A stretch of DNA of 64,000 nucleotides from Paraspadella gotoi (taxonomy: Eukaryota > Animalia > Chaetognatha): assembly GCA_051294375.1 (NCBI GenBank), contig CM119263.1, positions 20,736,115-20,800,114 on the forward strand, written 5' to 3'. The position numbers and the translations under genes were made by a program. Shown here piece after piece: positions 2,816-59,806 of this stretch (position 1 is its first letter; each line of letters starts with the position of its first letter). The notes beneath the pieces were generated by a model, which did not search any database, was not told the DNA's origin, and saw nothing but the letters and a program-made list of their open reading frames with translations.

Positions 2816-2859
<44 letters not shown>

Positions 2860-21112: not shown

Positions 21113-24100
21113 ATGATTTTTTTTCCCGCGATTTTTTGCGCGATAATTTGCGTCGTCTTCGGGACCGCTAGCTCGTCGAACTCATTGTACACAGGTGTAG
21201 GAATTTAATAATTCACGATAAGCTTATTCAGCTTATTTATTATAAAAAAAACTTGTTTGCTTCCACGCGGCAGGTACGTGCCATAACAGATGCGGCGAAT
21301 ACCGATTCAATTTAGTCTCTCAAATCGGATGCCAGTGCGATGAATTGTGCGCGCAAATGGAAGATTGTTGCGTTGACTACGAACGGATCTGTCGACTAGG
21401 AACTAAAATGTAAATTTTTTTATTAAAAACAATAGATAATAATAAGTCATTAACAGTATAACACTTTTAAAATGTGGAGCTAAGACTAAGAAAGGTATAA
21501 TACATAGAAATACAACAGAAATAGTATTACATGAAACACTGAAACAGGACTGAAAAGAAATATTCAATATTTTATGCCCTTTCCAGTAGGGTGGAGTGAT
21601 GAAAAGATTTGAGCGATGGAACTATGTTTTTTTGTTGCCTTTGTATATATAATAAAAAATAATTAAGCCCTTTTTTAAAAAAATTTGCATAACAGTATCA
21701 TTAATTGAATTTTTTTATAGTAATATCCTTATAAAATTATAAAATTTTAAAATCATATTTTTTTAATTTTAAGAACAGTTTTGGATTCGCCAGAAAAGAA
21801 TTAAAAACATTTGTAAAATATGTTACATAATATTTTTAGGTTAAAGCTGCAAAAAATGATCAAAACGTTTCATCATATAATAGTTTTTACTACAAAGCGT
21901 AAAAAAGTGGAGTATTTAACTTTTTTTTCCCATTGTTAATGCTGAAGACATTGAAGTTTTTAATAATATGGTGGACTAAAATCTACCAACCATTCATCAG
22001 CGGCCATTGGTGCCGGAGGCAAGTCATTCGCCTCCTAACCCAAAGGTCCGGGGTTCTAGCCCGGTGGTCGTCTGGCAATAAAGAGGGATGGGGCGCTTAA
22101 CCCGCCTGTAACATGGTGTTACCGCCTGGTCCGAAGCTCAGGGACTGCTTATATTGAACGGTTCTGTCACTAACACATAACAATAATTATTGTCTTATGG
22201 CAACAGCCGGGTGGCTTGTGATGCCTATTGGGATGGGGCATCTCACTGTTGGCTTTGAGGGCTTCCGACCCTCAGTGACGGCTCCAGTCACTGGCGCAGT
22301 TACCCTAGGACGGTCTCTCTTTGCCAACGCAGAGCGAAGTCGTTAAGACTGTGGATAGAACACTACGCCTGGGATGGTGTGTTCCCCCTTTGAGCCAATG
22401 GATTTGGCTGAAGGATGGGGGACGTCAGGCGGTGTGAATATACCGCCACAGTCTCTTCAATAACATATTTTATATTTTTGATCTAACTTTTTATGAATAA
22501 TCAGAATCTTTAATAAAAATTTAAAAAAAATTATTTTAAAAATTTATGATTTTATAAGGATATTACTATAAATATATTATAATTAAAGATACTGTTCCCC
22601 AAATAATATAAGCAAAATATTTTTTATACTCCTTAATCATACTATCTCATGTCTAAATATCCTTGTTTGTTCATTCAAATACAATTTATGTTCCCCAGTA
22701 CTCCACTCTACTGTCCAGTGTCCAATAATGCCTCCTCGGATCCTGCTATTACCGATTTTTTCCCTCGCTCACGGCCTCGCGCTTTCTCCCCCCAAAAAAG
22801 TTCCAGCCTGGAATGTCGACGATTTAACTGGAAACGAAGCCGCGTCATCTTCGGATTCCACGCCGTCGCTTCCTGCGGCGCCGAATTCGAACGGCGTCAT
22901 TCGCGAAGCCCGACGCCGGAATCGCTGGCCCAGCGGCGTGGCTGTGTGGACCCTTGGCGCCTGGGCGAAGATTGGGGCGTCCCCATTCGACGCCTGATGG
23001 AAGTTATCCCCGTGACGAAGACGTCTGACGACGCCCGTTTTGGCGTCACCTTTGCCAACGTCCACTGCTTTCGATGCGCCGACGACACCGGCGATGGAGA
23101 CAGGAAGTTCCTTCATTGGGGCGCAGAATTTCTCGTCAACGGACGATTCGAGATAGCGCCTGTGCTGGCAGCTAATTCCACGCTAAGGATTCAGGCGCTG
23201 CTGCCGCCGGAAGGATTCGTTGACGCCGCCGTCGCAGCCACCCAACGCGAGATGGCGCCGTGTCTTGTGCAGGAGGATTGGCTCGATGTGTGCTACAGGC
23301 AGGAAGAACGGAGGAATAAAACTAAAGCTAAGAAGGAGGAGAAAACGGGAAACAAAACGCCCTCAGATAGTTCTATTAAAATTTACTTTTGTCATTTACT
23401 ATCACTTAAATAATAGTTAAATTTAATTGGCTATGTATTTTAATTAATTTGTGCCGTGAAAACACATCTGTAAGCTTACCTCTATCTTCAATTTTCACAC
23501 AATTTATTTAGCAATAATCAAGTTTCTCTTGATTTTAAATCAAATAATTGCCAAGGACAAGAATTCCATTCATGTCGTATCACACAAGTTTCGTTTTTCG
23601 ACAATAAAATTTGATTCACAAATTCCATTCAATCATTCGTACGACCCCCCTCCCCATTCAATCTTAACAATTAATTCACCGCCAGGAACCTCTCTTACGG
23701 CCCTTTCCCCCGCCACTGGACCCAAGCGACGAGGTTCTGCGTTCGCCGACCGGAGATGCTTCTTCTCTTCGCCAACGAGGAGGCGATCGGCTGTGACGAC
23801 CCTAAATTCTGTCGCGAATTCGTTTCTCCCAATTGGCTACTGAAGACACCCGGCCAGAAAAAGGTGTCAGTTCGAATTTATTTATTATTATCAATATCTC
23901 TTGTAAGACAACCGATGAAGAAAAAATATTTTTTTGGGGGCGATTATTTTTGATGAACTAAGTAGTTAGTAATCGACCAGTGACAAAACCGTTATTATCT
24001 GTTAGTTTTACATGGAACTGTAACTGTATTTGTAACTGTACCGGAAGTGTAAAATCAATCATCTCGATTCAGGGATTTTTAGGCTTCTACCCTCTAACTC

Positions 24101-27100
24101 TTCTGGTCGACTCTTCTGGCTTCAGCGTCGTCACAGTCGAGAACCAGACGATAGCCTCCTGCGACAACAACAACAACAACGACAGCAACGACAAAGTCGC
24201 GTCACTTTTTGGCGCCGAAATGTGTCGACGCCCGACGATAGAGGGCGGAGGTGGAGATTTCTCTTTGAAGGCGACTTTGACGCAGGTTTTTATGGGACGG
24301 GAAAGACAAGTGACGAACAAATTAACAACCAAAAAAACGAACAATTTATGCTAATGACCTATGATCATATAATGAAGATCTAATATTGGTCAATCTAAGG
24401 TCATTGTCAAAGCTAGGGCAAAGTGACCGTGTGGATAGACCGGTTCGGAGAAAAAGGAGAGAGGAAGGGTTTAGAGAGAGAGACCGGTGGTAAGTCGCCT
24501 CATCCCCCCCTCAAGTTCGGACCTTAGGGGTTCGAACTGACCCTATTTACAGTTGAGGTGACTTGTACTACTAATTAATGAACAAAGTACTTTACAATAT
24601 TGTTTCTCCTTTGGGGAATATTTGGGAAAACAATAAGGTCTAAGAGAAACAATTGGGGGGACCCACAAAAAGGGGTTTGTCTTCTACAATAAATATTTTC
24701 ATATATCTCTTCACAAAAAAAAAATATTTTGGGAAGAAATTTTACAACAAGGAAGTAGGGAGATAGGAAAAATGATTTGTTTGGTCAAAGTGTTATGATG
24801 ATTGCTTGCTGTACAATATATATCTACTAGATATATATTGTATTAGATGTTTAAGATCTATCAGTCATTCGCGAGATCCGTGATTGTTAGATACCCGGTT
24901 ATCAGCGCTATCACCAAATCATCACCAGTTGGTCACTGTTACAATTAATCACAACTTGCCTAACAGCAAGTAATCGTCAAAAACAAAATCATCAACAGCT
25001 GGTTATTTCACGATTTAACCAAGCTTGCCTAACAGCAAGCAATCATCATAACACTTTGACCAAACAAATCATTTTTCCTATCTCCATACTTCCTTGTTGT
25101 AAAATTGATATCATATAGTCCTTCAGAACCCAGACGATGGTATTGTCTTGCACGTGCTTGTCTTTGAGGTTAGAGTTGTGTTGGTTGTTGAGTCGATCGT
25201 TGTCGTGGTGGCCATTATTGCTGTTGCTGTAGAGGTTCTTGTTGACGTTGCTGTTGAGGTTGGGCTGCCTGAGGATAAAAAAAAATTGTTCTATTATTTG
25301 TTTGACCTTCCCCCCTAGGAAACGACTCGCCTGTTGCTGTTGGTGGTCGTCCTCTTCTTGGGGCTGCTGGAGGTGTTGGTTGGACATTCGGTTCGGTTGT
25401 TGCTGGCTTGATCCTGTTGATGAGATCTTCTCTTGTCCTTGGCCGGGGATGTCCACTGTGAAGGTCTTGTCATCTCTAGAGACTACTTTGTAAGGGCCCA
25501 AGTAGGGCACAGCTAGCGAGTGGCCCTGTTGGCCGCGGAGCACAAAAACCCAGTTTGCTGAGGCAAGACTGTGAGGAAGATGAACAGGTGGGTTTGAGTG
25601 CCAATTAGGAACTACTGGTCTCAACAATACAACGTTGTGTCTCAAGTTTTGCAGCTCGTTTTGGGCATATGCTCTTGTTGGCTGTGTACCTATTACCAGT
25701 TCGCCTGGGATTGCTATTGTATCTCCGAATACAAGTTCTGCTGATGATGCTTTTAGGACTTCTTTTGGTGCGGACCTGAGTCCTAATAAGACCCAGGGTT
25801 GTTGATTGAACCAGTTTGCGCCGGACGCATCCCAACGCACTTTCAATGATGCCTTCATGGTACGGTGAAACCATTCGACCATCCCGTTCGCCTGCGGGTG
25901 GTAAGCTGTGGTGGTGTTAAGCTTGTAGCCTATAGCTTGGCTCAGCTTATGCCACAATTCAGAAGTGAATTGTGTTCCACGGTCGGAAGTGACCGTGGCT
26001 GGTACACCGAATCTGGCGATCAAGTTCTGAAGGAAGGCTGTTGCTACGGTTACTACAGAGATATCCCGAAGGGGATATGCTTCAGGCCAACGAGAAAAAC
26101 GGTCTACACAGGTTAAAAGGTATGTGTAAACGCCTGAGGTGGGCAAGGGACCCACCAAGTCAATGTGAATGTGTTCGAAACGTCTGCTGCGCTGGCAGTC
26201 AAGGCAGGCCTGAGCCCATTTTGCCATGTCTGACGCGGCTTTTGGCCAAACAAATCTCTTTGTTACCAGCTTTTTTGTTCATCTGACGCTCGGGTGAGCG
26301 AGGTTGTGGATGGCATCATATACTCAACGGCGTCATGTTGTGGGAACCAAGGGGCGCGCCCTGCCTGAACTGACATCGCAGATGATGTCAAAGTCGTTCA
26401 GGCGAACTATCTTGAATCGCAGGCTGGTGTGGGCGTCCGCCAGGAGTCGCTGGATCTCCTTGTCGGAACTTTGGTCGCTGACTAAAGCGGCAAAATCGAC
26501 GCCTTGGGGGCCAACTGCGTTGACCGTTGCGACCAACGAGGGCTTTTCTGAAGGTCCTGATGCTCCTTCAGGTTCTGGGCCGCTGCTTGCTGGGCTGATG
26601 ATTCTTGATTGTGTGTCCGCTACCTATATCATCACCCTAATCATTGTCCGTCATTAATAAAACTATTGTCAACCAAATACTTTGTCACTTATTATTTACC
26701 CTCGTTATTTGACTGAACGTCAACGGTACATTAACAAATTAACAATGAAAAACTATTAAAATTATTAATCAAGGAATATTGTATCAATTACTACATAGAT
26801 AAAAACGTAAAAATGTATCTATTATTTCGATTTCGCTGTTGATCCGCATCATTTTGCATCAGGTCTTTTTGTGGATCTCCCTCGTCTCACTGACGAGCGT
26901 CTCGGCCCTCCTGCAAACTTCGCCGACCAAATCGTTCTACTCCGGTCTCCAACTTCAGATGATCGTCGCTTTGATCCTCAACAACCTTCTCTTCGTCACG
27001 GCCGGGTTCGTCGACGGCAGCGGCGACTTATGCAAAGCCGTCGCCGTCCTCCTGCACCTGTTCCTCCTAGCGGGTCTCTCTTGGACCACCTGCTTGGCAG

Positions 27101-27747
27101 GCTGCATCTGTTACGGCCTCTGGCGCCTGGTCGAGGACGCCACGTCGATGTTCCTTGTCTCTCGGCCGGCGTCGTTTCTCGGCGAACGGAAGTTCTTGGG
27201 GGTGTCCGCGGCGATCTGGGCGGCGCCATCGGCGATCGTTCTCTTCTTCGTTCTCGCCGACGAAGCGCTGGCGCCCGGTAGCGTCGGCTACGGCGCCAGC
27301 GGTGTCTGCTGGATCGGCGACCGACATGCCCTGGCGCTGGCTCTTGTGGCGCCGGTCGGAGTCGCCTTTCTCGTCAACCTGCTACTGATCCTGGCCATCC
27401 TGCTGCTACTTCGGCGTCTGTCTAGATCCGGCTCCGTTTCCGGCCGCTGCGTTCGCCGCAGCGTGAATCTGACGGCGGTGTTTTTCCGGTTGGCGGCGAC
27501 GTTTGGCCTCCAATGGGTCTTCGGATTCCTCCTTCATTTTATCTCTTCTGACGTCCTTGAGTTTCTCTTCGTTGCCGCTACGTCGCTGCAGGGGGCGTTC
27601 GTCGCCGTCGCCGTCGTCGTCTCCGCCGAATGGAAGCAGCGCCCGGCGTGGCAGAGCCTTTTGGGGGCGTGGCGGAAAAGGCGCGGCGTTGTGGAACCCG
27701 ACACCGGGGTACAAGCGGAGACGACGAAAGATATGGAACGATGTTGA
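21113..27747 (+). CDS. Somatomedin-B-domain, family-B (adhesion/Methuselah-like) 7TM receptor, ~697 aa. Exons: 21113-21194, 21274-21409, 22699-23298, 23686-23863, 24073-24285, 26863-27747
   Basis: Signal peptide MIFFPAIFCAIICVVFG; SMB cysteine pattern TCHNRC..CQCDELCAQMEDCCVDYERIC; Cys-rich ectodomain (FANVHCFRC); 7TM region with CKAVAVLLHLFLLA..W, GYG..GVCWI, FGLQWVFG, SLQG. Exon phases are consistent (2094 nt in total) if intron 3 is GC-AG. Confidence 0.85.
21967..22459 (+). mobile_element. Solo LTR of the tRNA-cassette TRIM, with a second element inserted at 22196-22450
   Basis: Outer TSD ATAA. The LTR end TGTCT|CTTCA is split by an insertion with TSD GTCT. Confidence 0.85.
22196..22450 (-). 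mobile_element. Hairpin-rich solo-LTR-like element (family 2); partial second copy at ~40907-41053
   Basis: 255 bp, 4-bp TSD GTCT; the minus strand reads TGTGGCGG...GCCATA. GC-rich, with several short inverted repeats. Confidence 0.7.
25046..26560 (-). mobile_element. Ty3/Gypsy integrase fragment in the last intron of the receptor gene
   Basis: RFEHIHIDLVGPLP, LLTCVDRFSRWPEA, SDRGTQFTS, TTAYHPQANGMVE, PYLGPYKV. Clearly homologous to the 3' part of pol at 33076-36075; 5' truncated and frameshifted. Confidence 0.9.
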
Positions 27748-28168: not shown

Positions 28169-29343
28169 TAAGGCGTAGTGAAAGTTGCAGATCAAAATTC
28201 GAATAGTTGTTCAATGTTCATGAACAGTCTTGTACTAAAGAACATTGATATATAAAGAATTTTTTTAAAAAAATTTGTTAATTTTTGCATACGCTCATAT
28301 TTATATATAGTACTTACCATAGAACATGTCAAAATTTAAAAATAGTTTTTTTTTAGTTTTGAAAGCAGATTCGAATTCCTATAAAAAGTTGATAAAAGAA
28401 AATATAAGTCTTAATCAAAAATTCTTTCATTAAGTTAGTTAAAAATTAAAAAAACTATATTTTTTATACTTAAATTAATAATAATAGTTTTTTAACATTT
28501 TGACCCCCTCAATGAAATAATTTTTTAAAAAGTGTTATATTTCCTTCTATCAACTTTTCGTGAGGAATTCGAATCTACTTTCAAAATAAAAAAAATAAAA
28601 AATTTAAAATTTTAACATGGGCATATGCAAAAATTGAAAAATGTTTGCAGGTACAAGCTTGTTCGTAATCTACTATTCGAATTTTGATTCTACTGAAGAG
28701 ACAGTGATTATTTATATGTGTTAATGACAGAACCGTTCAATATAAGCAGTCCCTGAGCTTCGGATCAGGCTGTGACACCATGTTACAGGCGGGTTAAGCG
28801 CCCCTTCCTTCTTAACTGATAGGCGGCCACCGGGCTAGAACCCCGGACCTTTGGGTTGGGAGGCGAATGACTTGCCTCCGGCACCAATGGCCGCTGATGA
28901 ATGGTTGGTGGATTTTAGTCCACCATACATCCCCCCTCCTGTAGGGAGAAGTCTGTTGCGTCTCTTCAGTGAATTGTTGTTGGTGGAAAGTTCGTCACCA
29001 AGTTGAAGCATCTCGCCTGATGTGTTGTGGGCGGAAAGTGCATCGCCAGGTTGAGGCATGTTGCCTGAAAGTGTTGTCGTTGCTGTTGTGTTCGATAGTC
29101 GGGCTCACCAATGAAGAGACAGTGATTATTTATATGTGTTAATGACAGAACCGTTCAATATAAGCAGTCCCTGAGCTTTAAGGCGGGTTAAGCGCCCCGT
29201 CCTTCTTAACTGATAGGCGGCCACCGGGCTAGAACCCCGGACCTTTGGGTTGGGAGGCGAATGACTTGCCTCCGGCACCAATGGCCACTGATGAACGGTT
29301 GGTGGACTATACTACTTAATTTTAATACTTTTGCTATGCTTTA
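28169..29343. mobile_element. hAT-like MITE (TAAGGCGTAG termini) hosting the reverse TRIM copy
   Basis: Termini TAAGGCGTAG...CTATGCTTTA, 8-bp TSD TTAATCAG; related to 49260-49876. Confidence 0.7.
28694..29306 (-). mobile_element. TRIM with tRNA-like cassette, reverse two-LTR copy
   Basis: LTRs at 28694-28927 and 29112-29306 (the latter with small deletions). Internal region, PBS and PPT are similar to 14783-14971. Confidence 0.85.
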
Positions 29344-32139: not shown

Positions 32140-33075
32140 GCCAATACCATATATTATGTAGCCAAGTAGTTCTGAGTTTTTGACATGTAATTAGTTTAAT
32201 TGTTTGTTAAAATTTTGAGTCCATGTTGGAGTGAATTACAGAAACAATAGCTGATGTATACACGTCGTGGTTTTTTATGGTGCAACAGTTATACACAAAA
32301 AATGACAAATGGCCAAGTGTGGTTAGTAGAAGAAGAAAACTCATGAAGTTCAAAAAATAAAATTCGAAATAATTAAAGCGCACTAAATTCACCAACGCAA
32401 TTCATCACGCAAAATATCATGTCAGAGAGTTTGCCCGCTCTGCCAAATTTTTAAAAAGATACTAAGATAAAATCTCTAACCAGAGATGTGGACGCGATCC
32501 GGAACGCGTAAGCGAACACTGTGGAAGCGGCCGATTTTTGAGGAACGCAAATCTGGGAGCAATAAAACAAGTTTGAGCAAACAATGTCGGATCTGCCTAN
32601 NNNNNNNNNNNNNNNNNNNNNNNNNNNNNNNNNNNNNNNNNNNNNNNNNNNNNNNNNNNNNNNNNNNNNNNNNNNNNNNNNNNNNNNNNNNNNNNNNNNT
32701 GTCGTCGTTGTTGTTGTTGTTATCAGATGAGCTTCTACACATCCCCCCCCAAGCACTGGTGTTGACTTGATTTATGCCAGTAGGTGATATGTTGTGGCTC
32801 ATCGTCGTCTTGACTTGGCTCGGAAAGCGTGATAGGAGAGGAAAACGTTGTTTGACTCGTCTATCGGGTTGGATGCGTGTCGGAGCTGGCGCGGATTTTG
32901 TGCGCGGCGCCCCTTTGCGGCGCGGCTGTCTAATTGATGGCCGGTGTCTAGTTGCGGTGACTCTGGGATTGACGAGCGTGATGATGTCGAACTTGATCGA
33001 CGTGGCTGATGGGCAGTGCCTGAGATTTTGGGGGGACGCCCGCGAGTTGGAGCGATTGGAGGCGCCGGTGGATTT

Positions 33076-36075
33076 TCAGAGTCGATGGCGGCGAGGTTGA
33101 TTGCGGTCCAACGTTACCGTTTCTGGGCCTCGACCAGGGACGTCTATGACGACGTTGCGTTGGCGTCGTTCAAGGATCCGGTATGGGCCAGAGTAAGGTT
33201 GGGCAAGGGCGCCGCTGTTGGGAGGTCGTCGGATGAAAACAAAATCTGTTTCATCCAGAGAGTTAGGGATTTTGGTCGAAGTTTGGCCATGCGCAGTGCC
33301 GGGGATTGGTCGCATTAAGGCAACGTCAAAACGAAGTTTTCGTAGCGTCTCTGCGCGTGCGCCATCATCCACTTCCGGTTGTGGATCTCCTGTGTTGATT
33401 AGCTCGCCAGGCACGGTTAATACATCACCTGTGACAAGTTCTGCTGGCGATGCATTGAGGTCAGCCTTGTGAGTTGTTCGCAAGCCCAGGAGTACCCAAG
33501 GGAGCTGGCTCACCCACTTGTCCGCGGCTTCCTCGCAGCGAGCTTTCAGAGACGATTTGAGGGTGCGGTGCATTCGCTCTACCATTCCGTTTGCTTGGGG
33601 ATGGTAAGCGGTTGTCAAAGTGAGCTTGAAACCAATTGTATCTGCAAGTTGGCGCCACAGTTCTGATGTAAACTGTGCGCCTCTGTCTGTTGTCACTGTG
33701 GCTGGGACGCCAAAACGGGCTACCCAGTTCTGGAGAAAGGCGGAAGCGACAGTTGATGCAGTCGTGTCTTGGATTGGAATTGCCTCTGGCCAGCGAGTGT
33801 ATCTGTCGACGCAAGTTAGAAGGTGGGTGTGGCCGGATGAGTGAGGGAGAGGCCCAACCAAGTCAACGTGTACATGCTCGAAACGTTTCTCAACTTGAGG
33901 GAATTCTTGTGGTGGCGCTCGGATATGGGTATGGATTTTTGCGCGTTGGCAGGTCGTGCATGTTCGTGTCCATTCTGCTACATTGGAGGAAGCTGATGGC
34001 CAAGTGAAGCGGCTGGTAAGCAGTTTTTTGGTTGCACGAACGCCAGGGTGGGAAAGGCCATGGATCACCTCAAAAACGCGCCGGCGCCAATTCTCTGGGA
34101 CCAGCGGTCGCGCGCGGCCACTGCTGACATCACAGAGGATGTCAATACCATCGACTTGGACTCTTTGGAGGCGAAGGCTTGTATGGGCATCTGCGAGGAG
34201 GCGTTGCACATCCTCGTCGTCAGACTGATCGCGCGCCATTGTTTCAAAATCGATTCCGTTTGGGCTTACGGCGTTTATGGTTGCTCGTAGCGTCGGAGTT
34301 GCGGCCGGAGGAAGTTCGACGCGGGAAAGAGCGTCGGCAACGGAGTTGGCTTTCCCTTCGATGTACTGGATATCAGTTGTGTATTCTGATATCGCCGCGA
34401 GCTGATACGCCTGGCGCATTGTATGGGGTTCAGCTTTTTTTCTGATAGCTGGAACCAAGCTGTTGTGGTCTGAGAAAAGAGAAAAAGGTCGGCCTTCGAT
34501 AAATGGGCGAAAGTGGCGGACGGCGCGGAATGCTGCTAGCAACTCGCGGTCGAACGGTGGCCATTTCCTTTGGTGCTGCTGCAGCGGCGCTGAGAAAAAA
34601 CCTAGCGGCTTCCATTTTCCGTTGACGGCTTGTTCGAGAACGCCACCTATGGCGGTTAAGGAGGCATCTACTGTGAGGGCGAGCTGTGCATCTTCGCGAG
34701 GGTGCACTAACATTGTTGCTGATGCAAGGGCTTCCTTGGCAGCTGTAAAGGCTTCCTCACATTCCGGAGTCCAGTTGAGGCGTTGAGGCTTCCCGCGAAG
34801 TGCTTCGTAGAGTGGCTCAAGGACGTGAGCGGCGTGTGGAACGAAACGCCGATAGTAGTTTAGTACGCCGAGAAATCTCTGGAGGTCCTTGATGGATGCG
34901 GGAGTCGGGAAACGATTGATGTCGTTGACTCGGCTAGGGAGCGGGGTGACGCCATGTGCATCGACGTGATACCCCAGGAATTCGAGTGATGGGGCACCAA
35001 AAACGCACTTGGAACGGTTGATAATTAAACCGTTGTTTTCCAGGGCATTAAAGACGCGAGTGAGATCGTCGATGTGCTCGTCAACTGATGAAGAGGCGAC
35101 TAGAATGTCGTCTAGATAGACGAATACATGAGGGATTCCAGATAAGATGGCATCCATCATTCTCTGGAAATCCTGAGCAGCGTTTTTAAGCCCGAACGGC
35201 GTTCTCAGGTATTCCCAGAGGCCGAAAGGAGTGATGACCGCTGTTTTTGGGATATCGGCTTTGTTGACAGGGATTTGGTGGTATCCCTTGTAAAGATCGA
35301 CTTTGGAAAATATGATTTTTCCCGAGATTTCTGAGTTGAAATCAGAAATGTGTCTGATTGGGTAGCGGTCATCTTTTGTTGCGGCATTTAAACGGCGGTA
35401 GTCTCCGCATGGCCTGAGACTCCCGTCGGGTTTTGTCACGACATGTAGTGGCGATGCCCATGGGCTGCGGCTTTTTCTCACAATGCCTAGCTTCTCGAGT
35501 TTTTCGAATTCTGCCTTGGCGGCAGCGAGTTTGTCGGGGGCTAGGCGGCGCGCGCGGGCGTGTACTGGAGGGCCCTCGGTGAGAATGTGATGCTCAACCC
35601 CATGGCGAGGTTGGGCCGGGTCGAATGATGGCGTCGTGAGAGCGGGGCGGGCATCAAGGAGCTGAGTGAACACATTATGGACGTGATTCACTCTGAATGA
35701 TCGGGCAAGTTTAACTTTGCCCGTGACTGTTGTGAAATCTTCGCAGTCGACGAGGACTTCTAGTTTCGGGAAAGGTGCGAGGTTATGACCCATCAGGAAG
35801 TCATTTCCTAAGATGGGTGAGGCGACGTCCGCAACTGTGATGTCCCACTCAAAAGTTCGTTGGCCGAGGCGTAATGTCATTGAGCGCTTGCCATAACAAG
35901 GAATTGGCGTGCCGTTGGCCGCGTGAAGGGGCGTGGCTGCTGGGCCGGCGCGGCGCTCCGAATCGTTTGGTGAGATAAGGGAGACGGACGCACCGGTGTC
36001 GACGAGCCACGTGAGGTCGTTGTTGCTGTCGCGGACGTGGAGCAGGGTTTCGACTGCGCCGGCGGCGGCGCTCAC
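33076..36075 (-). CDS. pol: Gypsy Pol polyprotein (protease, RT, RNase H, integrase)
   Basis: LVDTGAS, PWASPLHVV, CGDYRRLN, PFGLKNA, VYLDDIL, TVDASL, FSDHNSL, HGLSHPG, HVDLVGPLP, TDRGAQF, GPY; 999 aa uninterrupted. Confidence 0.95.
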   Translation of the reverse strand: MSAAAGAVETLLHVRDSNNDLTWLVDTGASVSLISPNDSERRAGPAATPLHAANGTPIPCYGKRSMTLRLGQRTFEWDITVADVASPILGNDFLMGHNLAPFPKLEVLVDCEDFTTVTGKVKLARSFRVNHVHNVFTQLLDARPALTTPSFDPAQPRHGVEHHILTEGPPVHARARRLAPDKLAAAKAEFEKLEKLGIVRKSRSPWASPLHVVTKPDGSLRPCGDYRRLNAATKDDRYPIRHISDFNSEISGKIIFSKVDLYKGYHQIPVNKADIPKTAVITPFGLWEYLRTPFGLKNAAQDFQRMMDAILSGIPHVFVYLDDILVASSSVDEHIDDLTRVFNALENNGLIINRSKCVFGAPSLEFLGYHVDAHGVTPLPSRVNDINRFPTPASIKDLQRFLGVLNYYRRFVPHAAHVLEPLYEALRGKPQRLNWTPECEEAFTAAKEALASATMLVHPREDAQLALTVDASLTAIGGVLEQAVNGKWKPLGFFSAPLQQHQRKWPPFDRELLAAFRAVRHFRPFIEGRPFSLFSDHNSLVPAIRKKAEPHTMRQAYQLAAISEYTTDIQYIEGKANSVADALSRVELPPAATPTLRATINAVSPNGIDFETMARDQSDDEDVQRLLADAHTSLRLQRVQVDGIDILCDVSSGRARPLVPENWRRRVFEVIHGLSHPGVRATKKLLTSRFTWPSASSNVAEWTRTCTTCQRAKIHTHIRAPPQEFPQVEKRFEHVHVDLVGPLPHSSGHTHLLTCVDRYTRWPEAIPIQDTTASTVASAFLQNWVARFGVPATVTTDRGAQFTSELWRQLADTIGFKLTLTTAYHPQANGMVERMHRTLKSSLKARCEEAADKWVSQLPWVLLGLRTTHKADLNASPAELVTGDVLTVPGELINTGDPQPEVDDGARAETLRKLRFDVALMRPIPGTAHGQTSTKIPNSLDETDFVFIRRPPNSGALAQPYSGPYRILERRQRNVVIDVPGRGPETVTLDRNQPRRHRL

Positions 36076-37568
36076 TTCCGGCCGCCGGCCCGGGCATTTC
36101 CCAGAGCGCAGGCGACGCCAGGGCGGACCTCACGGCAGTTTCGGGCTCTCTTTCCGAATTCTACATGGTACCAGCATAAGTCTCAATCCATGTCGGTGGC
36201 AGTTGACGTGGGCTTGGGGAGTGGAGGGCGTGGGCGCTGTTTACGACGCTCTACGCGCTTCCATGTTTGAGAGCCATTGCCGACGGCACAGATTTCCGTG
36301 TAGGTGCGAGTTTGGTCATCGGCCTCGTCATCGTTGCAATCATTGACGCAGGCGTTGACAGTGGAGCTGGTCGTAGGTGCCTTTACTAGCAGGCTGCCGG
36401 TGCGGTCGTAAAAGCAGTCCGCTGCCTTTGCTGCTTCATCAAGAGAATTTGTGTCCGTGAAGGCTATGTTCTGAACGTGAGTGGGCAATGCATTGGCGAG
36501 GATCTCTTTGAAGATTGCCTCTGGCTTAATATTTTCAAAGGTAGCCCGAATGATGGTTGCTAATTGAGATGGGGTTCTCCCGCCTAGCATCATGGGTTTG
36601 TGAATCCTTGCAGCGCGTTGTCAAGGTTTTTCGTCAAAAAGGTCGATCAGGCGTTTGAAAACTTTGCGGTACGAGGGAGTGCGGTCGGGAACATAGAAGT
36701 CTTGAAGAAGCAATTGATGTTGCGATGGTATCGCTGCAAAAGCGTGGCTGGCGCGAGCGGTATCATCAAATACATCGGCGACAACGAAGGATGACTCGAC
36801 GCCCGCTAACCATAGGCGAATGTTTGTTGAATCAAAAGCTGGGAGCTTGGGAGAGCGGGGGCGTGGCGGCGCTGGCGGCGCCGGTGGCATGACAGGAGGC
36901 GGGGCGGGGAAAGTGAATGTTGGAACTCGCGGCATTGTGCTTGCGCACGGCGTCGTGAATGCTGACAATGGGGGAAAAGGAGAGTCAGTCTCTGAGTTGA
37001 CTTGAGATGTGGATCCGTTTGACCGCCGGCGAGGGTTAGGGTGGTTGGCGCCGGAGGCCACATAAGGCGGGTTCAGCATAGTGGTGGTTGATTTCGTGCT
37101 CTCAGATGAGCTCGTCGTTGGTGTCGATTGAATTCCGGCAGTTGGAGTCACCGTCGGCAGGGCACTGGATGCTGGAACGTCGATGCGAACGGGTTTTGGC
37201 AAGGTGGCTGAGGCACGACTGACGGAAGGCAAGGCAGCTTCGTTTGCTGAGCGGCGTCGTGATGCGGAGTTTGAACGTTTTATATCCTCCAGAGCGGCGA
37301 CGTGATTTTGTCCCATCTCGTGAACGGACCTTGTGACGGCGTCCTTGACGGCCTTTTTGAGTGCGACGTCCAATTCGCCGCGAAACTGGTTCTTGAAGAG
37401 ATCGAAATGTTCACCTAAAGGGTTGCTGGAGTCGCGAAGCTGAGGGTGGGTAGCGCCACCACCGACGGCGCCAATCACTCTAGAGCAATGGCCGCGTCCG
37501 CGATATGAAGGAGCGGACCCTCGGCGGGAGCGGTTGAATTCATCTTCAGCCATATCTTCCATTTGCAC
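36073..37568 (-). pseudogene. gag: Gypsy gag interrupted by two in-frame TGA codons
   Basis: ORFs 37568-36621 and 36593-36183 and the following DLCWYHVEFGKRARNC knuckle are all in one frame; KLPAFDSTNIRLW and LGGRTPSQL motifs. Confidence 0.85.
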
Positions 37569-38593
37569 ATTTGTCTTGGGATTTTGAAAGAGTTTTGTGA
37601 GTAAGTAGTACGGAGTGAGTAAAGGTTGCGTGATTTTCTTTTTTGTCGGGCGATCACCAATTGAGGTGACTAACTTGGCGAAATATTAAGATTGAAAATT
37701 GAGACAAGTTTTCCGTATTTTTTTTCAACATGTAATGATTCGGAAATCATAAGGAAAGACAGAAAATATCAAATCAAAAACAATGGTTAAACAATTCGTG
37801 GTCAAAACTAACTAAAGGAAAGGAAACAAATGAATTGGTTTAGTGGCCCAATTAAGTAGACCCACTTAACGGTCAAATGGTTGATTCATTCTAGACACGA
37901 TTTGGTCGTTGTCGTCGTTGTTGTTGTTGTTATCAGATGAGCTTCTACAAAAGCTTAATATAAGCTGTATCAAGTTTAATGTCGCTACTAAAAGCTTTTA
38001 TAAGCTTTAAATATAATTTTGACTGCGTTATGTAGCTCGGTACTTATTTTCCATTTTGCTTAATTTTTAGCAATTTTTATGAAAATACTTATCATTTAGA
38101 ATCACTCAATATTTATATAAACAGGTTTTTTGTATTTTTATGGATGAAAACTGGTTTAGTTGTTTTAGTTATATTTCACTAACAAAAGTGAACTTAACCA
38201 GCTTTCTTTGATGTCAAATTTTATCATTTTTTTCAATTTTTTTGCATCAAATTGCTTTATAAAATCGATAGAACGGAAAAATTGAGCAAGCGAATTTTCT
38301 TTTTTTTATCTTGGGGCATAGTATTATATCAAATTCAAAAAATTAAGGGGAAACAAGAGGTCATATATCATATATTGTATTTATTCTCCGCGCTAATGTT
38401 CACCACCTCTCTCCCCTCTTTCTCCCCCCCCCCACTTCGCCAGCCGAATTTTTGCAACTTAGAAGGAATTTAAAAGTTTTTTTTTCTGTCGGCGATCAGC
38501 AGGTGGCGTCGCCCGATTGCAGACTCGCTGTTCATCAGTCCAAAGCCAATCACCGCCTGAGCACCATGAAAAACCTCTTCTATGGCACCAGTG

Positions 38594-46592: not shown

Positions 46593-47441
46593 AACAAAAA
46601 CAAAAACAAAAACAATGAAATTGTAAATAGGGAAAATGAAAAATTGTCTTTTGTATTTCATCGTCACGTCTCGTGAGTCTTTTGTTTTTACTCCGAGAGA
46701 TTCCAATTTCCGCCGTTTCTCAAACGGCGGCGTTGATCAAATGTTTTGTCTTTGATGTTGTCTCCGGAATCCGCCTCCAAAATTCAGTCTTTCTCGTTTC
46801 GCCTTTGAAACTTCCTTTTCTGTTTCCGACCGATTTCACAACAGACTTATCCTACTCATTTCCTGTTTGCGAGGCCTAGCAGAATGTCAGTATATCTGGG
46901 CGCTTGTCTTCAAGAGTATGAAATAAAAAACATAAATTTCACAAAACGAAACTCACTTTTAAAAGATTTCTGTATATCAATATCTAAATAACTTTCTGCA
47001 CCCTCATTTCCTTCCTCACCTTCTCTATATTCAAAATTTTAACTTATCTTCCCCCAGAGCCAGCCCCTACTAAAATCGTTCCCCACCTAGTACAGCCCCT
47101 CCCCCCCAACGCCTCTCCTTTCTCCTCCTATTTCTTTCCCATATTCCCCTCTTTCTCTCCCACTATTCCTCTCTCCCCCACCCCCCGCTCTCCCGCTCCA
47201 TATTTTCTCCTTGAGACACCGCCCCCCTATCGCGTTTGAATTATCTCGCTCTCTCTCACCTGGCGCCGAGATCGTGGTGCGAGGACGCCCATCTATCGCT
47301 TCGTCGTCGTTGTTGGTATCGTCGTCGCCGTTAACGTCGAGGTCGTCATCCAGTCGCTTCATTGGCTCCGTCGTCGTCGCCATTGGCTTCGTTGCTGTTG
47401 TCGTTATCTTCATCGTCACTGTTGTCGAGAAGCGTAATCAT

Positions 47442-47936
47442 TAAGGTGGATCGACTAGCGAATTAAGCCCTACCTCTCGAATTTCCCTATACTTTAAAAT
47501 TTAAAAATTATTAAAAAAAATTTTGGCCTTTCCTATTTATATATAAATATTTAAAAAATTAATTATTTGGGTATAGAGCCACATAAGAAATGCTTTTTCC
47601 ATTGAAAGTATACTTAAAAATGTATAAATTTTCGTTTGAGCATATAATCATTCTAAATTTTTGACTCACCCCATAGAGTGCGGCTTCCCCTAATACAACT
47701 ACTAAATAACTTTTTACCCTAAAAAAATCTTTAATATACGAAGATTTTAAGGTCACGTGACCGATATTGACCAATCACATATCGCGAATGGCTATTTTTT
47801 TTAAATTGAAAAAAGGCGTGTGATCCCGAATATTTATTAATCAATTGCTGTTGTGAAATAAAAGAAACTAAAAAGGGCAAAGGAAAAGCCGAGAGGTAAA
47901 AGATTTTGAAAAAATTCTACATCAGAATCCACCTTA
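47442..47936. mobile_element. hAT-like MITE (TAAGGTGGAT termini) inserted into the TSD of the ribozyme retroposon
   Basis: TIR TAAGGTGGAT/ATCCACCTTA and 8-bp TSD GTAATCAT; internal part related, in reverse, to ~54884-54990. Confidence 0.8.
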
Positions 47937-47944
47937 GTAATCAT

Positions 47945-48303
47945 AGACTTGAACTTGAAAGGCATTCGTCCAACGAGGGACTACCTCACTCTCAAAGCTG
48001 TCTAAGATGGTAAACTTGAGACTTGCCTTGAGAGGCTGCAGCCAGAATGTTGTTAAATAGGGTGGGAAAAGATAGAGGAAGAGAGGGAGAGAGGTGGATG
48101 GAGGGAGGGGATTGGGAAGGGGAGGAAGAGGGGGGAGGTGACCAGGTCGTCTGGGCCTGACCCACTCCGTTACCCAAGAAAACAGATCGGGATTCCGCCT
48201 TTCGACTTTTCCTTCTCCTTGTTTGATTGAGCCTCCCGTCTCTTTTGCCATCCGAAAGGATGTTCCCGCTAGCACCGCGTGGAGGTAAAGACGTACTGCT
48301 AGC
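47945..48303 (-). mobile_element. ~360-bp non-coding retroposon headed by an HDV-like ribozyme (RTE-type non-autonomous element)
   Basis: Flanked by the TSD AGCGTAATCAT (47431-47441 and 48304-48314). 3' end ...GCCTTTCAAGTTCAAGTC; 5' end at ribozyme G1. Confidence 0.75.
48237..48303 (-). ncRNA. HDV-like self-cleaving ribozyme (predicted)
   Basis: P1 GCUAGC/GCUAGC; P2 CGUCUUU/AGAGACG; P3 ACC/GGU; L3 UCCACGC; GG available for P1.1; GAA then P4 CAUCC/GGAUG; J4/2 G-C-AAA with the putative catalytic C at 48247. Confidence 0.85.
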
Positions 48304-48687
48304 AGCGTAATCATTGACTTGATTGTTGTCGTTATCGTCCTCCTTGTCGTAGTGGTAGTTCTCATCGTCGACTTCGTCATTGTTGTCGTCATTTTCAGAT
48401 TGTCGTCGTAATCGTTGTGGTTGGCGACATCGTCGACCGAGTTGTGGTCGTCATCGTCGTCATGGTTGTCGTCGTCGTCGTCATCATCGAAGCCGATTAA
48501 ATTTGGTTGTGAGAGTTTTAGCGGCAAAGGGAGAAAGTAACAGAAAGTGTGAACGCTCAGATTAAGTACTATTTTTTTTTATTTCAAGGCAGGTGTGAGA
48601 ATCTGGTTGAAGTAGGGTGAGAGGCAAGCAATTTAACTAGTAAAGACTAAAAGCGAATTAGCGTATTAGCGAGAGTGGGGTGAACAT

Positions 48688-51550: not shown

Positions 51551-51617
51551 GCTGGCAGAACGTCTCAACGTCCTCGCGGTGCCAGCGGGAACATCCCACG
51601 GGATGGCAAAAGAGACG
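51551..51617 (+). ncRNA. Second HDV-like ribozyme copy (more degenerate)
   Basis: P1 GCUGGC/GCCAGC; P2 CGUCUC/GAGACG; L3 UCCUCGC; GGGAA-CAUCC/GGAUG-GCAAA; P3 has a G-G mismatch. The ~75 nt downstream align with 48159-48236. Confidence 0.75.
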
Positions 51618-52663
51618 ACAGGCTCAAAAAACAAGGAGAAGGTCAAGCCGAGAGGTGGATCCCCGATCTGTTTTTATGGGCAACGGAGTGGGCATGGAAT
51701 TGCCACCCATGTCACCTGCTAAAACAAAAAAATGGCTACAGCAAGGACCCAACTCCGAAAATAATATAAAATTTCGACTTTTAGCAAAGTTTTTTAAGTT
51801 GTCTTGACTAAATATTTAAGCTATCATTTTCCAAAAAAATTTACATTATACGTCTTGATTAATACATTAAATATTACATTATAAAATTGTTTTTTAAATC
51901 TTAAAATTTAAGATGGATTCTGATAGAGCATAAAAAGTTAAACAAGAAATAAAATTACAGCTTTTAAAAATTCTTACACTTTCTAAGTGAAAATAAAAAA
52001 ACAACTGATAAAATCATTGAAAGATGATGATGATAATGATTTTTTATGGTTTTTCTTATTTTTGAATCACTTATCATGAAAATATTGAAAAAAGAATTAT
52101 ACTTTGTGTAGACAACTTTTTATTAGCTATCTGAATCTGGTCTTAAAATTACCCCTACTACTACTACTACCCCTACTACAGCCTCTCAAGGCTGCGTCGT
52201 ATGATTTATTTATAGTCGAGGAAAGAAGAAGGTTGATGGCGGTGGGAAAGTGTGTGATAAAGCTGGATATAAAGTTTCCGACGGTAATCGTGTGAGTAGA
52301 AATGAGTTTAAGTGGAAAAAAACAAGTCGCATTTACTAAAATATTTTTACTTATTTTAACCATAAGTACTCATAATTAATCATAATTGGATGGATAGATT
52401 GAGTTCAAATTTTTCATGTGTGGGTAGAAAAATGTGTAAACGATGCTAATGATATAAGTTTCGGTGGAAACGTACGAGTGGAAATGAGTTTAAATTAAAA
52501 AATATGAGTCACATTTACTTGAATCTTTTTACTTATTTTAACCCATAATAGATTGAGATGAAATTTTGTGAGTGGGTAAGAGAGAGAGAGAGAGAGAGGA
52601 GTGAGAGAGCAGAAAATGAGCATAAGGATCGTCGCAATTGCAAGAGAGAGAGAGAGAGAAGAG

Positions 52664-57262: not shown

Positions 57263-59806
57263 TTATATGGATTTTCTACGCCAGGCTCCCATCCTTGAGG
57301 CGTTCGTTGTTCGAGGACGGCTCCGACTGCTATATCGGAGGCGTCAGTGGTGAGCGTCAGCTGTGCGTTGGTGCGAGGATGTCAGAGAAGCACCACTTTG
57401 GCGAGCAGTTAAGTTGCTTGGGTTTGCCTGCTAAAACGTCGTACAGGGCAGCGGCATGGTGAGCTGCGTTTGGTATAAAACGCCGGTAATAATTCACCAT
57501 GCCTAAAAACCTTTGCAACTCCTTAACGGTTGTAGGTGGGTTTGTTTCACGAATGGTGTCGACCTTCTACGGCAGCGGCTTGACTCCAGTTGCATCCACC
57601 AGGTAGCCTAAAAATTCGAGTGACGATTGTCCCACGAAGCACTTTTTCCTGTTGATAACAAGGCCGTTGTCGGCAAGGGAGTCGAAGACTTCCTTCAGGT
57701 CGTGGAGGTGTTCCTCTTGATTGGCACTGGCGACGAGAATATCAAGTATGCGGAATATCCCCCAATATTTCGTCCATAATCCGCTGAAAGTCTTGCCCCG
57801 CGTTCTTGAGGCTGAAGGGGGTGTGGAGAAAGACGAATAGGCCAAAGGGGGTTATAACCGCTGTCTTAGGAATATCTTCTTCTGCCACAGGGATCTGATG
57901 ATACCCCTTCAGCAGGTCGATTTTCGAAAAGATCTTCCCTGCCAATTCCGCGTTGAAATCCGCTAGAAGTTTGACAGGGTATTTGTCGTCCTTGGTGTTA
58001 GCATTGAGACGACGGAAGTCTCCACAACACCTCCATCCACCGTCTGCTTTGGGAATGCATAGTAGAGGAGACGACCAAGTGCTTTTGGCCCGTTTAGCAA
58101 CGCTGACAAGGACAATTTTTCCAATTCGGCCTTCGCCACGGCGAGTTTCTTCGGCGGAAGGCGGCGTGCTCGCGCTTGGCTGGGTTCGACCGAACGTTGG
58201 AATGTGATGCTTGACTCCGTGCTTTGGTTCCTTGATTTCAAAGGTAGGAGTCGCTAAGGTCGGATATTGGTCGAGTAGTTTGTAGTAGGCGTTGTTTTCC
58301 TCTTCAATTAAATTCGCGTGGGATGGGGGAGGGATGTTGGAGACGTCGCAGGAGATGGTCGATAGATCTTTGAGGTCGAGCAGAGTCCCGTCTCGATGAA
58401 TGGGGGCCAAATAAAATTCGGCTAAAAAGTCTGCCCCCAGTATGCCTTGTGTGACGTCCGCCACAACAAAGTCGAATGAAAATACCCTAGAGCCGAGTAC
58501 TACTCGGCGGCGGATGTTGCCGTAGGCGTTGATCGACGTGCCATTGGCCGCTTTAAGTTTTGGACCAGTTGGTCCTGCCACCCGCTGGGCTGCTGTCGGA
58601 GGGACGAGTGAAAGAATGGCACCTCCATTGATGAGCCATTTGCGTCCGTCGGAGGCGTCCTTGACATGCAGCAAGAAGTTATCGGATGAATCTGAGGTGG
58701 CGCGGGGCACAGCGTTCACCTGCGCTGGCCAGGGGCGCCGTTTCCCTATGCCGGCTCTTTACATTTCCATCGTTCGCTTGCAATGAAAGGCGGCGTTGCC
58801 GAACTTCAAGTGCCTCTTGCAAACTTGTTTGAGTCGGGCGTTTGGTGGACGAGTAGTCATTGACGGGCCGCTCGAGGAGTTCTGGCGCCATGCGTTGTTC
58901 TGGGAGCAATTTCTATTGCGGCGTTGCCCTTGAACTGCGTTGACGCCGGCGTCGTTTTCTCCTTCGGAGTTGCTTATCGAATTTTCGACGGGATTGTCGA
59001 GCGTTGCGGCGCTAATCGTCGGCGTTGGCGCCGCGAGAGTCGGACGGCCTTGCGAGTCGAAGAATTTGTCAGCTGCCTTAGCCAACTGGGAGGCCGTGCA
59101 GTTGTCCGCTTTGTCTTCGAGTGATCGCCTTATTTCTATGGGAAGTCCTCTAAAAATAGTTTCCTTTTTCAAATCGTCAATCGTTAGTGCCTTTATTTTG
59201 TCCTCGAGGCGGGCGAGATGCTGAGACGGCTTTAAGCCGTCTCTCGTGAAACCGCCAAGCATTATCGCCGCCTGCTGGCGCGGCGTGGTTCCATATTCCT
59301 TGCGGAGGTACGAGATAAACGCCGTCCAGTTGGCTTCCGTTGGTTCGCCATAAAGGAAGGCGTTAATACGCGGATTAGTATCGACGCTGATCTTTGCCTC
59401 CAGATGGGCGAATTTCTCGCTCGCTTCGCGTATATTGGCGCGGATGGAGGCCGCTTCTACTCGACGAATCCAAATCTCGATGTTTTGGAGTCAAACGCCG
59501 GTAGTTCCGGCTTTTTCTTTTTCTTCAATGACTTTAGGGCCGCCGCCAATGCTGAGCGGAGAGCCTCGGTCTCGTCGGAGCCATGTTGCCGTTGGCGTGT
59601 GCGAAGGTTCTTAGATTCTGATTAGTCGGTGGGAAGGCGAAGAATCTGGGGACGCTGGCGGAAGCACAGAAGCTGCCGGCGCCTGTAGGGACGGTGAGAA
59701 TAACTTGTTGGCGTAGACGGGCAGTTTGACGCATCTCCCTTGAACTCGCTCATCGATGGGTTGGGCGTAGAGAAGGTTGGATTTGTTTGTCATCGGGATT
59801 ACCAAT
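57263..59806 (-). mobile_element. Decayed, 3'-truncated Ty3/Gypsy element (gag, protease, RT, start of RNase H)
   Basis: PBS TGGTAATCCCGATG at ~59791-59804, directly after an LTR end ...CTACA. Gag motifs LPAFD and CKRHLKFG..AFHC; pol motifs ILGADFL, CCGDFRRLN, KIDLLKGYHQIP. Frameshifts; degenerate protease site (LINGGA). Confidence 0.9.

What the first reader, a model, noticed from the sequence alone, without database searches (positions are those of the whole stretch)
47945..48303. Short retroposon that starts exactly at the cleavage site of an HDV-like ribozyme
Seen in sequence: the minus strand of 48303-48237 folds by eye into the HDV nested double pseudoknot (P1 GCUAGC/GCUAGC, P2 CGUCUUU/AGAGACG, P3 ACC/GGU, L3 UCCACGC, GGGAA-CAUCC..GGAUG-G-CAAA). 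This closely parallels the HDV genomic GGGCAACAU...AUGGCGAA core. The base just outside G1 belongs to a duplicated target, AGCGTAATCAT (48304-48314), whose other copy is at 47431-47441 once a later MITE is removed; the match extends through GACTTGA with one mismatch. The element ends in (TTCAAG)2, has no tRNA/5S head and has no credible ORF. Established knowledge: HDV-like ribozymes process the 5' ends of R2, RTE and L1Tc non-LTR retrotransposons, and RTE elements end in short tandem repeats. Inference: a promoter-less non-autonomous family that cuts itself out of read-through transcripts and is mobilised by an RTE-type LINE. The coincidence of TSD and G1 is genomic evidence that cleavage happened in vivo.
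Basis: partly seen in the sequence, partly recalled or inferred. Interest (0 to 1): 0.88.

Follow-up and report, generated by a model that had tools for sequence, protein, structure and literature searches.

The report
Ribozyme-headed short retroposon family
This is one copy of a short, repeated jumping element whose copies begin at the first base of an RNA fold of the hepatitis-delta self-cutting type; the fold likely cuts the element out of longer transcripts, an arrangement already known from several retrotransposon families.

Summary
The minus strand of 48303-48237 forms all five HDV helices with a catalytic-position C at 48247 (1 strict descriptor hit in the window, 0 in 100 shuffles). 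An 11-bp target duplication abuts G1 once a 495-bp MITE with its own 8-bp duplication is set aside. New here: a second, damaged copy starts at the same G (51551, +) and has one compensatory P1 change; contigs of public runs show a family of many copies whose likeness stops at or a few bases short of G1, followed by unrelated flanks; the family tail is (CAAGT)n rather than (TTCAAG)2. P1 has 6 bp, within the published R2 range. No partner LINE was found; RTE rests on the repeat tail, the duplication and a 13-nt RTE 5'-UTR motif. Cleavage and lack of a promoter are untested, and an internal promoter starting at +1, as in L1Tc, would give the same boundary. ORF-less LINE derivatives with a 5' HDV-like ribozyme are known (R2 SIDEs, NARTc/RIME/SIDER, bipartite RTE and Vingi). 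Verdict: real, a new member of a known kind; interest 0.3.

The parts
47945..48303 (-). Copy A: 359-nt ORF-less retroposon, full length from G1 to the tail
   Evidence: bounded by the duplication; family boundaries at 48303 and about 47953 in contigs of public runs
48237..48303 (-). HDV-like ribozyme fold, 67 nt: P1 6 bp, J1/2 4 nt, P2 7 bp, P3 3 bp, L3 7 nt, P1.1 2 bp, P4 5 bp; predicted cut 5' of G1 (48303)
   Evidence: cleavage not tested
48247..48247 (-). C57, the counterpart of the catalytic cytosine in J4/2
   Evidence: position in the fold; same in copy B; no variant listed
48207..48219 (-). 13-nt motif also found in the conserved RTE 5'-UTR domain of Kojima 2018; weak hint of RTE origin
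   Evidence: one occurrence in the window; its 12-nt core occurs 76 times in the supplement of PMC5786205, many as repeats of one SINE in alignments; altered in copy B
48061..48137 (-). Pyrimidine-rich low-complexity middle
   Evidence: sequence; internal deletions among other copies (table 5)
47971..48052 (-). Predicted long 3' stem-loop, a candidate recognition element for the partner's reverse transcriptase (inferred)
   Evidence: fold of 47945-48070: z -3.18, 1 of 200 shuffles as good; one of 5 stretches folded
47945..47957 (-). 3' tail: two CAAGT-type units; family tail (CAAGT)n; the last 8 nt overlap a match to the target
   Evidence: (13 contigs in X5, 18 in X6 with loose ends at 47953)
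48304..48314 (+). Target-site duplication, copy at the element's 5' side; match extends to 48322 (18 of 19)
47431..47441 (+). Target-site duplication, copy at the 3' side, later split off by the MITE
47442..47936 (.). Later MITE, 495 bp, with terminal inverted repeats and an 8-bp duplication (47434-47441 and 47937-47944); hAT-like by duplication length (recalled rule); not part of the retroposon
51551..51692 (+). Copy B: 5' part of a second, diverged copy, 82.5% over 143 nt, starting at the same G1; fold at 51551-51617 with a compensatory P1 pair (A-U to G-C), one U-G to C-G in P2, and mismatches at the last P2 and third P3 pair
52176..52192 (+). Short remnant of copy B's body beyond an inserted MITE-like piece (about 51908-52147); no 3' end or duplication found for B
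   Evidence: 16 of 17 match to copy A; nhmmer of the 3' part finds only A

Best explanation
This is a full-length copy of a multi-copy, ORF-less retroposon whose 5' end is G1 of an HDV-like RNA fold; it is likely a two-ended remnant of a LINE, most likely of the RTE clade, whose fold is predicted to cut it out of longer host transcripts and whose 3' end would be copied into new sites by the partner LINE's enzyme. Steps: (1) shown: fold, boundaries, duplication, tail, many copies with unrelated flanks; (2) inferred: a host transcript reads through the copy, the fold cleaves 5' of G1 using C57, leaving an RNA that starts at G1; (3) inferred: the partner's endonuclease/reverse transcriptase binds the 3' stem-loop and tail and primes at a nick, here at a site that matches the tail over 7 of 8 bases, leaving an 11-19 bp duplication; (4) shown by nesting of the duplications: a MITE then landed in the 3' duplication.
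For: Fold. Second copy at the same G1 with a compensatory P1 pair, 44 of 46 cells paired against 37-52% for slid partners. Family: summed contig depth in X1 8,270-20,531 across the element against 62.5 on the unique flank; in 5-base bins it falls from 4,442/1,389/1,129/43 (48300-48304) to 94.6/13.3/20.7/0 beyond, the level of the one locus-specific contig (X1, X6, X7, X9). Loose ends listed at 48303: 3, 7, 7 and 2 contigs, plus 1 at 48304; their agreement (0.51, 0.41, 0.41, 0.63) is what unrelated flanks give (0.49-0.63 for 3, 0.42-0.50 for 7, 0.55-0.70 for 2). Of 32 listed pieces none but the own-locus contig passes 48304. The base before G1 differs among copies. In the zone where can list variants (about 48245-48273) they fall on 5 of 6 P1 3'-strand positions, J1.1/4, the top P4 pair and L4, none on P1.1, the lower P4 pairs or G55-G56-C57, like the variable P1 and fixed core described for fly R2 ribozymes (PMC3774820). 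RTE signs: short tandem-repeat tail and 10-20 bp duplications are RTE traits (PMC2887409); RTE 5'-UTR motif right after P2. Depth at the 3' end is not clearly above depth at the 5' end in the DNA runs, as expected for a short element copied whole.
Against: No partner LINE found, so the clade and the two-ended origin are not shown; repeat tails and 5' ribozymes also occur in other clades (PMC5786205). The RTE motif is only 13 nt, purine-rich, was looked for after the fact, and is altered in copy B. No cleavage data. Rfam scores stay below the curated cut-offs. Pair conservation was counted on 2 copies only, the shuffle control is uninformative there (250 of 500), and B breaks two pairs. cannot list variants within 30 letters of a piece's end or below 1% of depth, so P3, L3 and both 5' strands are unseen in the family. 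Several copies stop matching short of G1 (listed loose ends at 48294 x3, 48297 x2, 48299 x2, 48300 x2 and x3; 29 rows not shown): either changed P1 5' strands or slight 5' truncation. Nested folding predicts competing pairings (A7-U30 in place of P3). Summed contig depth is no copy number, and the best DNA holders may include the window's source.
Confidence: 0.7

Rival explanations
1. Same mechanism, but the parent is a Vingi/Ingi element or another ribozyme-bearing clade (R1, R4, LOA), not RTE.
For: Ingi, Vingi and R2 also give ORF-less two-ended derivatives, and six clades carry 5' ribozymes (PMC5786205). No partner was found. Earlier notes of this scan report Vingi-derived ribozyme-headed minis in other genomes (unchecked).
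Against: RTE 5'-UTR motif; unrelated flanks argue against the site-specific R1/R2/R4 clades.
Confidence: 0.17
2. The 5' end is set by an internal RNA polymerase II promoter that starts at +1; the fold is inherited from the parent and serves mainly to protect the RNA end, or no longer cuts.
For: In L1Tc/NARTc the first 77 nt are both promoter and ribozyme, and several well-folded SIDER heads did not cleave in vitro (PMC4035085). The fold itself improves R2 template use (PMC11331408). Copy B has a broken P3.
Against: Catalytic-position C and P1.1 show no listed variant while the P1 3' strand varies, and one P1 change is compensated: the pattern of a working fold. A promoter and cleavage are not exclusive.
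Confidence: 0.1
3. A hybrid retroposon: ribozyme head from one element, 3' end from another.
For: R2/R1 hybrid SIDEs exist (PMC3414825). Copies A and B part after about 170 nt, and B lacks A's 3' end.
Against: B carries an insertion and still has a 17-nt remnant of A's body behind it, so decay explains the difference; contigs bridge the body from 47960 to 48203 and from 48059 to 48304, one build.
Confidence: 0.08
4. Chance fold in a repeat of another kind.
For: Rfam matches are below gathering; the nested fold of the 67 nt is not unusually stable (z -1.56).
Against: 0 strict hits in 100 shuffles, three HDV-type Rfam models agree on the place, boundary at G1 in both window copies and in most listed contigs.
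Confidence: 0.01

Closest known systems
Bipartite ORF-less non-autonomous LINEs of the RTE clade (RTESINE1/2, WALLSI3, RTE-N2_Lch, Bov-A; Kojima 2018, PMC5786205; parts 1-4 of 5 and supplement searches read)
   Same: Short, no ORF, no tRNA/5S head, repeat tail, RTE 5'-UTR motif; the paper says such elements usually keep the parent's extreme 5' end and links this to the 5' ribozyme.
   Different: Parent not identified here; this element's core motifs are absent from that supplement; the paper does not show folds for these elements in the text I read.
R2 SIDEs and R2/R1 hybrid SIDEs of Drosophila (Eickbush and Eickbush 2012, PMC3414825; abstract and Discussion read)
   Same: Non-autonomous element made of a 5' HDV-like ribozyme and a LINE 3' end, dependent on co-transcription.
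   Different: SIDEs sit at fixed 28S rDNA sites; this family is dispersed among unrelated flanks.
NARTc, RIME and SIDER elements of trypanosomatids with the Pr77 / L1TcRz head (PMC4035085; passages read)
   Same: Dispersed short retroposons that begin at +1 of an HDV-like ribozyme; cleavage there was shown in vitro for several.
   Different: Those start with C1, belong to the L1Tc/ingi clade and carry a shown promoter in the same 77 nt; this one starts with G1 and lies in an animal-type genome (thrombospondin exons, 7tm_2 gene, Pao and Ty3/gypsy pieces).
HDV-like ribozymes (Rfam RF00094, RF02682, RF01787 drz-agam-1; R2 ribozymes, PMC3774820, passages and two sections read)
   Same: Five helices in nested double-pseudoknot order, U and G at the conserved L3 places, catalytic-position C in J4/2; P3/L3 closest to drz-agam-1.
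   Different: P1 of 6 bp instead of the 7 of the standard descriptor (PMC6326823, passages); 6 or 7 bp is the typical R2 range, so this is no new build. Scores below the Rfam cut-offs.

Membership tests
HDV-like ribozyme | P1, P1.1, P2, P3, P4 can all pair in nested double-pseudoknot order | tested here: met
   23 of 23 pairs in copy A; 0 strict hits in 100 shuffles
HDV-like ribozyme | G1 paired with a pyrimidine; U...G in L3; C and A in J4/2 | tested here: met
   G1-C36, L3 U21 and G26, C57 and A60 in both copies
HDV-like ribozyme | P1 of 7 bp (standard descriptor) or 6-7 bp (R2 range) | tested here: met
   6 bp: fails the 7-bp descriptor, inside the R2 range
HDV-like ribozyme | Reaches an Rfam family's gathering score | tested here: not met
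   33.7 of 50, 27.9 of 44, 25.4 of 37 bits: not a member of any single Rfam family; those models are narrow
HDV-like ribozyme | Pairing kept by covariation across copies | tested here: inconclusive
   1 compensatory pair, 2 broken pairs on 2 copies; partner strands hidden
HDV-like ribozyme | Mg2+-dependent self-cleavage 5' of G1, lost on C-to-U | not testable with these tools
   needs an assay; no raw RNA reads were offered
Non-autonomous non-LTR retroposon | Dispersed copies with a common 5' end, repeat tail and unrelated flanks | tested here: met
Non-autonomous non-LTR retroposon | Target duplications of variable length | tested here: inconclusive
   one duplication seen (11-19 bp); none found for B; other copies' two flanks not available together
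Non-autonomous non-LTR retroposon | No coding capacity | tested here: met
Bipartite RTE derivative | 5' and 3' ends match those of an autonomous RTE element | tested here: inconclusive
   no partner in the window or the collections scanned; no genome held; only a 13-nt motif
Bipartite RTE derivative | Short tandem-repeat 3' tail | tested here: met
   (CAAGT)n; RTE trait per PMC2887409, not exclusive to RTE
SINE with Pol III head (tRNA, 5S, 7SL) | tRNA- or 5S-derived head with A and B boxes | tested here: not met
   no ARAGORN or Rfam hit, no box patterns
R2 SIDE | Insertion at the 28S rDNA site | tested here: not met
   no rRNA in the window; unrelated flanks

The most novel reading that the evidence does not exclude
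A stand-alone 'ribozyme SINE': a head that replaced the Pol III promoter by a compact 6-bp-P1 HDV ribozyme and was joined to the 3' end of an unrelated LINE, with subfamilies that keep re-pairing P1 by compensatory change, so that hundreds of dated copies form a natural mutational scan of the ribozyme under selection for mobility.
Probability: 0.1. Interest if true: 0.5.

Novelty: new member of a known kind. Interest (0 to 1): 0.3.

Why it matters
It adds a compact, 67-nt natural HDV-like fold with a 6-bp P1 that Rfam cut-offs and 7-bp descriptors miss, in a family with many copies and at least two subfamilies. If it cleaves, each copy on the sense strand of a host transcript is a potential cut site, and the family is a convenient test of whether ribozyme activity is what keeps such promoter-poor elements mobile. 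The principle itself is published, so the gain is one more clean example and a usable sequence set, not a new mechanism.

Tried and rejected
No whole genome is held, so copies were studied through contigs of public runs. Exact-pattern scans found nothing: viral contigs, metagenome contigs, genome contigs; these collections are mostly not animal DNA, so the blanks say little. No RNA holder listed; X9 is only guessed to be RNA, its 1207-nt contig joins 961 nt of flank across G1 and its 840-nt contig (depth 639) runs from 48088 through the tail into 703 nt of flank: neither shows strand, level or cleavage. I first read that 840-nt contig as a partner LINE's 3' end and withdrew this after checking the record coordinates (note). 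No joint that skips the element cleanly (empty site) among the 15 listed of 47; own-locus contigs are present in X1, X5, X6 and X7. Pfam scan of 102 of 144 stop-to-stop frames of 75 aa or more (42 left out, most of them overlapping frames already chosen) found no non-LTR reverse transcriptase or endonuclease. A model from the two copies finds no third copy in the window (next best 11.8 bits). A 7-bp P1 using the base before G1 (U-G in copy A) was rejected: that base differs among copies. A 7-bp P1 through A7-U30, favoured by nested folding, would leave P3 with 2 bp. Bacterial promoter scan: empty and not relevant to an animal genome. Paper search for this tail unit with RTE terms gave nothing relevant; for shortened P1 nothing relevant in the listing. 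The search of earlier findings by sequence and by place: nothing. Ruminski 2011, Webb 2009 and Webb and Luptak 2011 are not held; I know them only through PMC6765202 (passages) and PMC5786205. The supplements of PMC3774820 could not be read; these unseen texts may already list RTE ribozymes with a 6-bp P1. PMC4870747 and PMC10879173 (passages) gave no P1 length.

Full report
Observation. The minus strand from 48303 to 48237 can form every helix of the HDV fold: P1 6 bp, P2 7 bp, P3 3 bp, P1.1 2 bp, P4 5 bp, with a 7-nt L3 and a C at 48247 in the catalytic position. A descriptor of my own, written after seeing the motif, hits once in the 64-kb window under strict rules and never in 100 dinucleotide shuffles; relaxed, it hits twice against 34 hits in 100 shuffles. 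Rfam has no match at gathering score, but three HDV-type models match here below it: RF00094 33.7 bits, RF02682 27.9, RF01787 25.4, E 0.003-0.007. The 11-bp duplication occurs only at 47431 and 48304; its chance at one fixed place is 3e-7; it extends to 18 of 19 bases once the MITE is set aside. The MITE (47442-47936) has inverted ends and its own 8-bp duplication nested in the retroposon's, so it came later.

A second copy. BLAST of the element against the window finds a copy at 51551 (+), 82.5% over 143 nt, whose likeness begins at exactly the same G. Of 11 differences in the 67-nt fold, five lie in J1/2 and L4, one in L3, two form a compensatory P1 pair (A-U to G-C), one turns U-G into C-G in P2, and two break pairs (last P2, third P3). 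Forty-four of 46 cells pair, against 37-52% when partners are slid; with two rows the shuffle control says nothing. Copy B is interrupted by a MITE-like piece, keeps a 17-nt remnant behind it, and has no 3' end or duplication that I could find. Its subfamily is real: loose ends in X6, X7 and X9 match its sequence behind the fold.

The family. No genome is held. Nine public runs of one coded organism, from 3 studies, hold the stretch or part of it, as contigs only; I laid 5 of them (X1, X5, X6, X7, X9). Summed contig depth in X1 is 62.5 on the unique flank and 8,270-20,531 over the element; peak-to-flank ratios are 243, 349 and 309 in X1, X6 and X7. The tool warns that this is no copy number; I read it as many copies, probably hundreds. 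In 5-base bins depth falls from 4,442, 1,389, 1,129 and 43 at 48300-48304 to the single own-locus contig beyond. Listed loose ends pile at 48303 (3, 7, 7 and 2 contigs; 1 at 48304), with fewer at 48294-48300 (12 contigs over 5 rows); 29 rows were not shown, and the same loci recur between samples. Flank agreement matches unrelated sequence, so there is no conserved extension upstream of G1 among these contigs and no fixed target site. At the other end 13 and 18 contigs leave the reference at 47953 with further GACTT units: the tail is (CAAGT)n. The target of copy A matches this tail over 7 of 8 bases, so the true duplication lies between 11 and 19 bp and the site may have been chosen by pairing with the tail (inference). 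Internal deletions occur among copies (table 5).

Variation in the fold. One search lists 10 substitutions at 8 places: 5 of the 6 P1 3'-strand positions, one in J1.1/4, the top P4 pair and L4. None is listed at P1.1, the lower P4 pairs or G55-G56-C57. The table hides changes within 30 letters of a piece's end and below 1% of depth, so P3, L3 and the 5' strands of P1 and P2 are unseen, and I cannot say whether those P1 changes are compensated. The base before G1 varies, so P1 starts at G1 and has 6 bp. The standard descriptor has 7 (PMC6326823, passages), but R2 ribozymes typically have 6 or 7 (PMC3774820, section 16).

How it most likely works. A host transcript runs through a copy; the fold cuts 5' of G1; the freed RNA is bound at its 3' stem-loop (z -3.18) and tail by a partner LINE's enzyme and copied into a nicked site. 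The boundaries, copies, tail and duplication are shown; cleavage, the source of transcription and the partner are inferred. RTE is the best guess: repeat tails and 10-20 bp duplications are RTE traits (PMC2887409, passages), a 13-nt piece of the conserved RTE 5'-UTR domain follows P2, and the site-specific clades do not fit unrelated flanks. No partner was found in the window or in the collections scanned.

Comparison with what is known. It works like R2 SIDEs (PMC3414825, abstract and Discussion), like NARTc, RIME and SIDERs, and like the two-ended ORF-less RTE and Vingi derivatives, which usually keep the parent's 5' end, a fact linked in print to the ribozyme (PMC5786205, parts 1-4). A review states that hundreds of HDV-like copies with conserved downstream and differing upstream sequence were already seen, and that RTE elements and some SINEs use such ribozymes (PMC6765202, passages). 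It is not an R2 SIDE, not a Pol III SINE, and not a member of any one Rfam family by score; membership in the RTE-derived class is likely but unproven. Earlier notes of this scan describe the same arrangement in other genomes (AI notes, unchecked, not used as support); none is like this sequence. I did not find this family in print, on the strength only; Repbase and Dfam were not available.

Verdict. A real and tidy example, new as a family, known as a kind. Interest 0.3.

Noticed in passing
window 14548-14782, 14972-15209, 18830-19064, 21967-22195, 28694-28927, 29112-29306: A 235-bp repeat family with six copies about 80-93% alike and a tRNA-like stretch by eye, although ARAGORN calls no tRNA; probably an ordinary SINE.
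   Followed up: partly
window 32700-37949 (-): Ty3/gypsy-type LTR element with a 1017-aa frame holding protease, RT, RNase H and integrase matches and a gag-like frame; 40 identical bases at both ends, the left end running into an N gap. Decayed relatives at 25049-26278 and 57570-59490.
   Followed up: partly
window 51908-52147: MITE-like piece inside copy B whose inverted ends resemble those of the MITE at 47442-47936; both window copies of the retroposon were hit by this kind of element.
   Followed up: partly
window 47870-47896 (+) versus 48198-48224 (-): A 27-nt purine-rich stretch inside the MITE is 78% like the retroposon's sequence just behind the ribozyme; may be chance (I2).
   Followed up: no
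window 2261-3257 and 19320-19622 (+): Exons of a thrombospondin gene (TSP_3, TSP_C), with a Pao-type retrotransposon remnant at 5512-6366 between them.
   Followed up: no
window 26803-27747 (+): Intron-less 314-aa frame with a secretin-family 7tm_2 match, next to a gypsy integrase remnant; possibly a retrocopy or one long exon.
   Followed up: no
run X9, contig of 840 nt laid at 47952-48088: One contig of high depth (639 against about 60-70 over the ribozyme) carries the element's 3' part and 703 nt of flank; if X9 is RNA, one copy lies in an abundant transcript.
   Followed up: no
window 47290-47430 and 48320-48490: Copy A sits in a degenerate (GTC/GTT)n low-complexity tract that reads as Asp/Asn-rich on the minus strand; no Pfam match.
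   Followed up: partly
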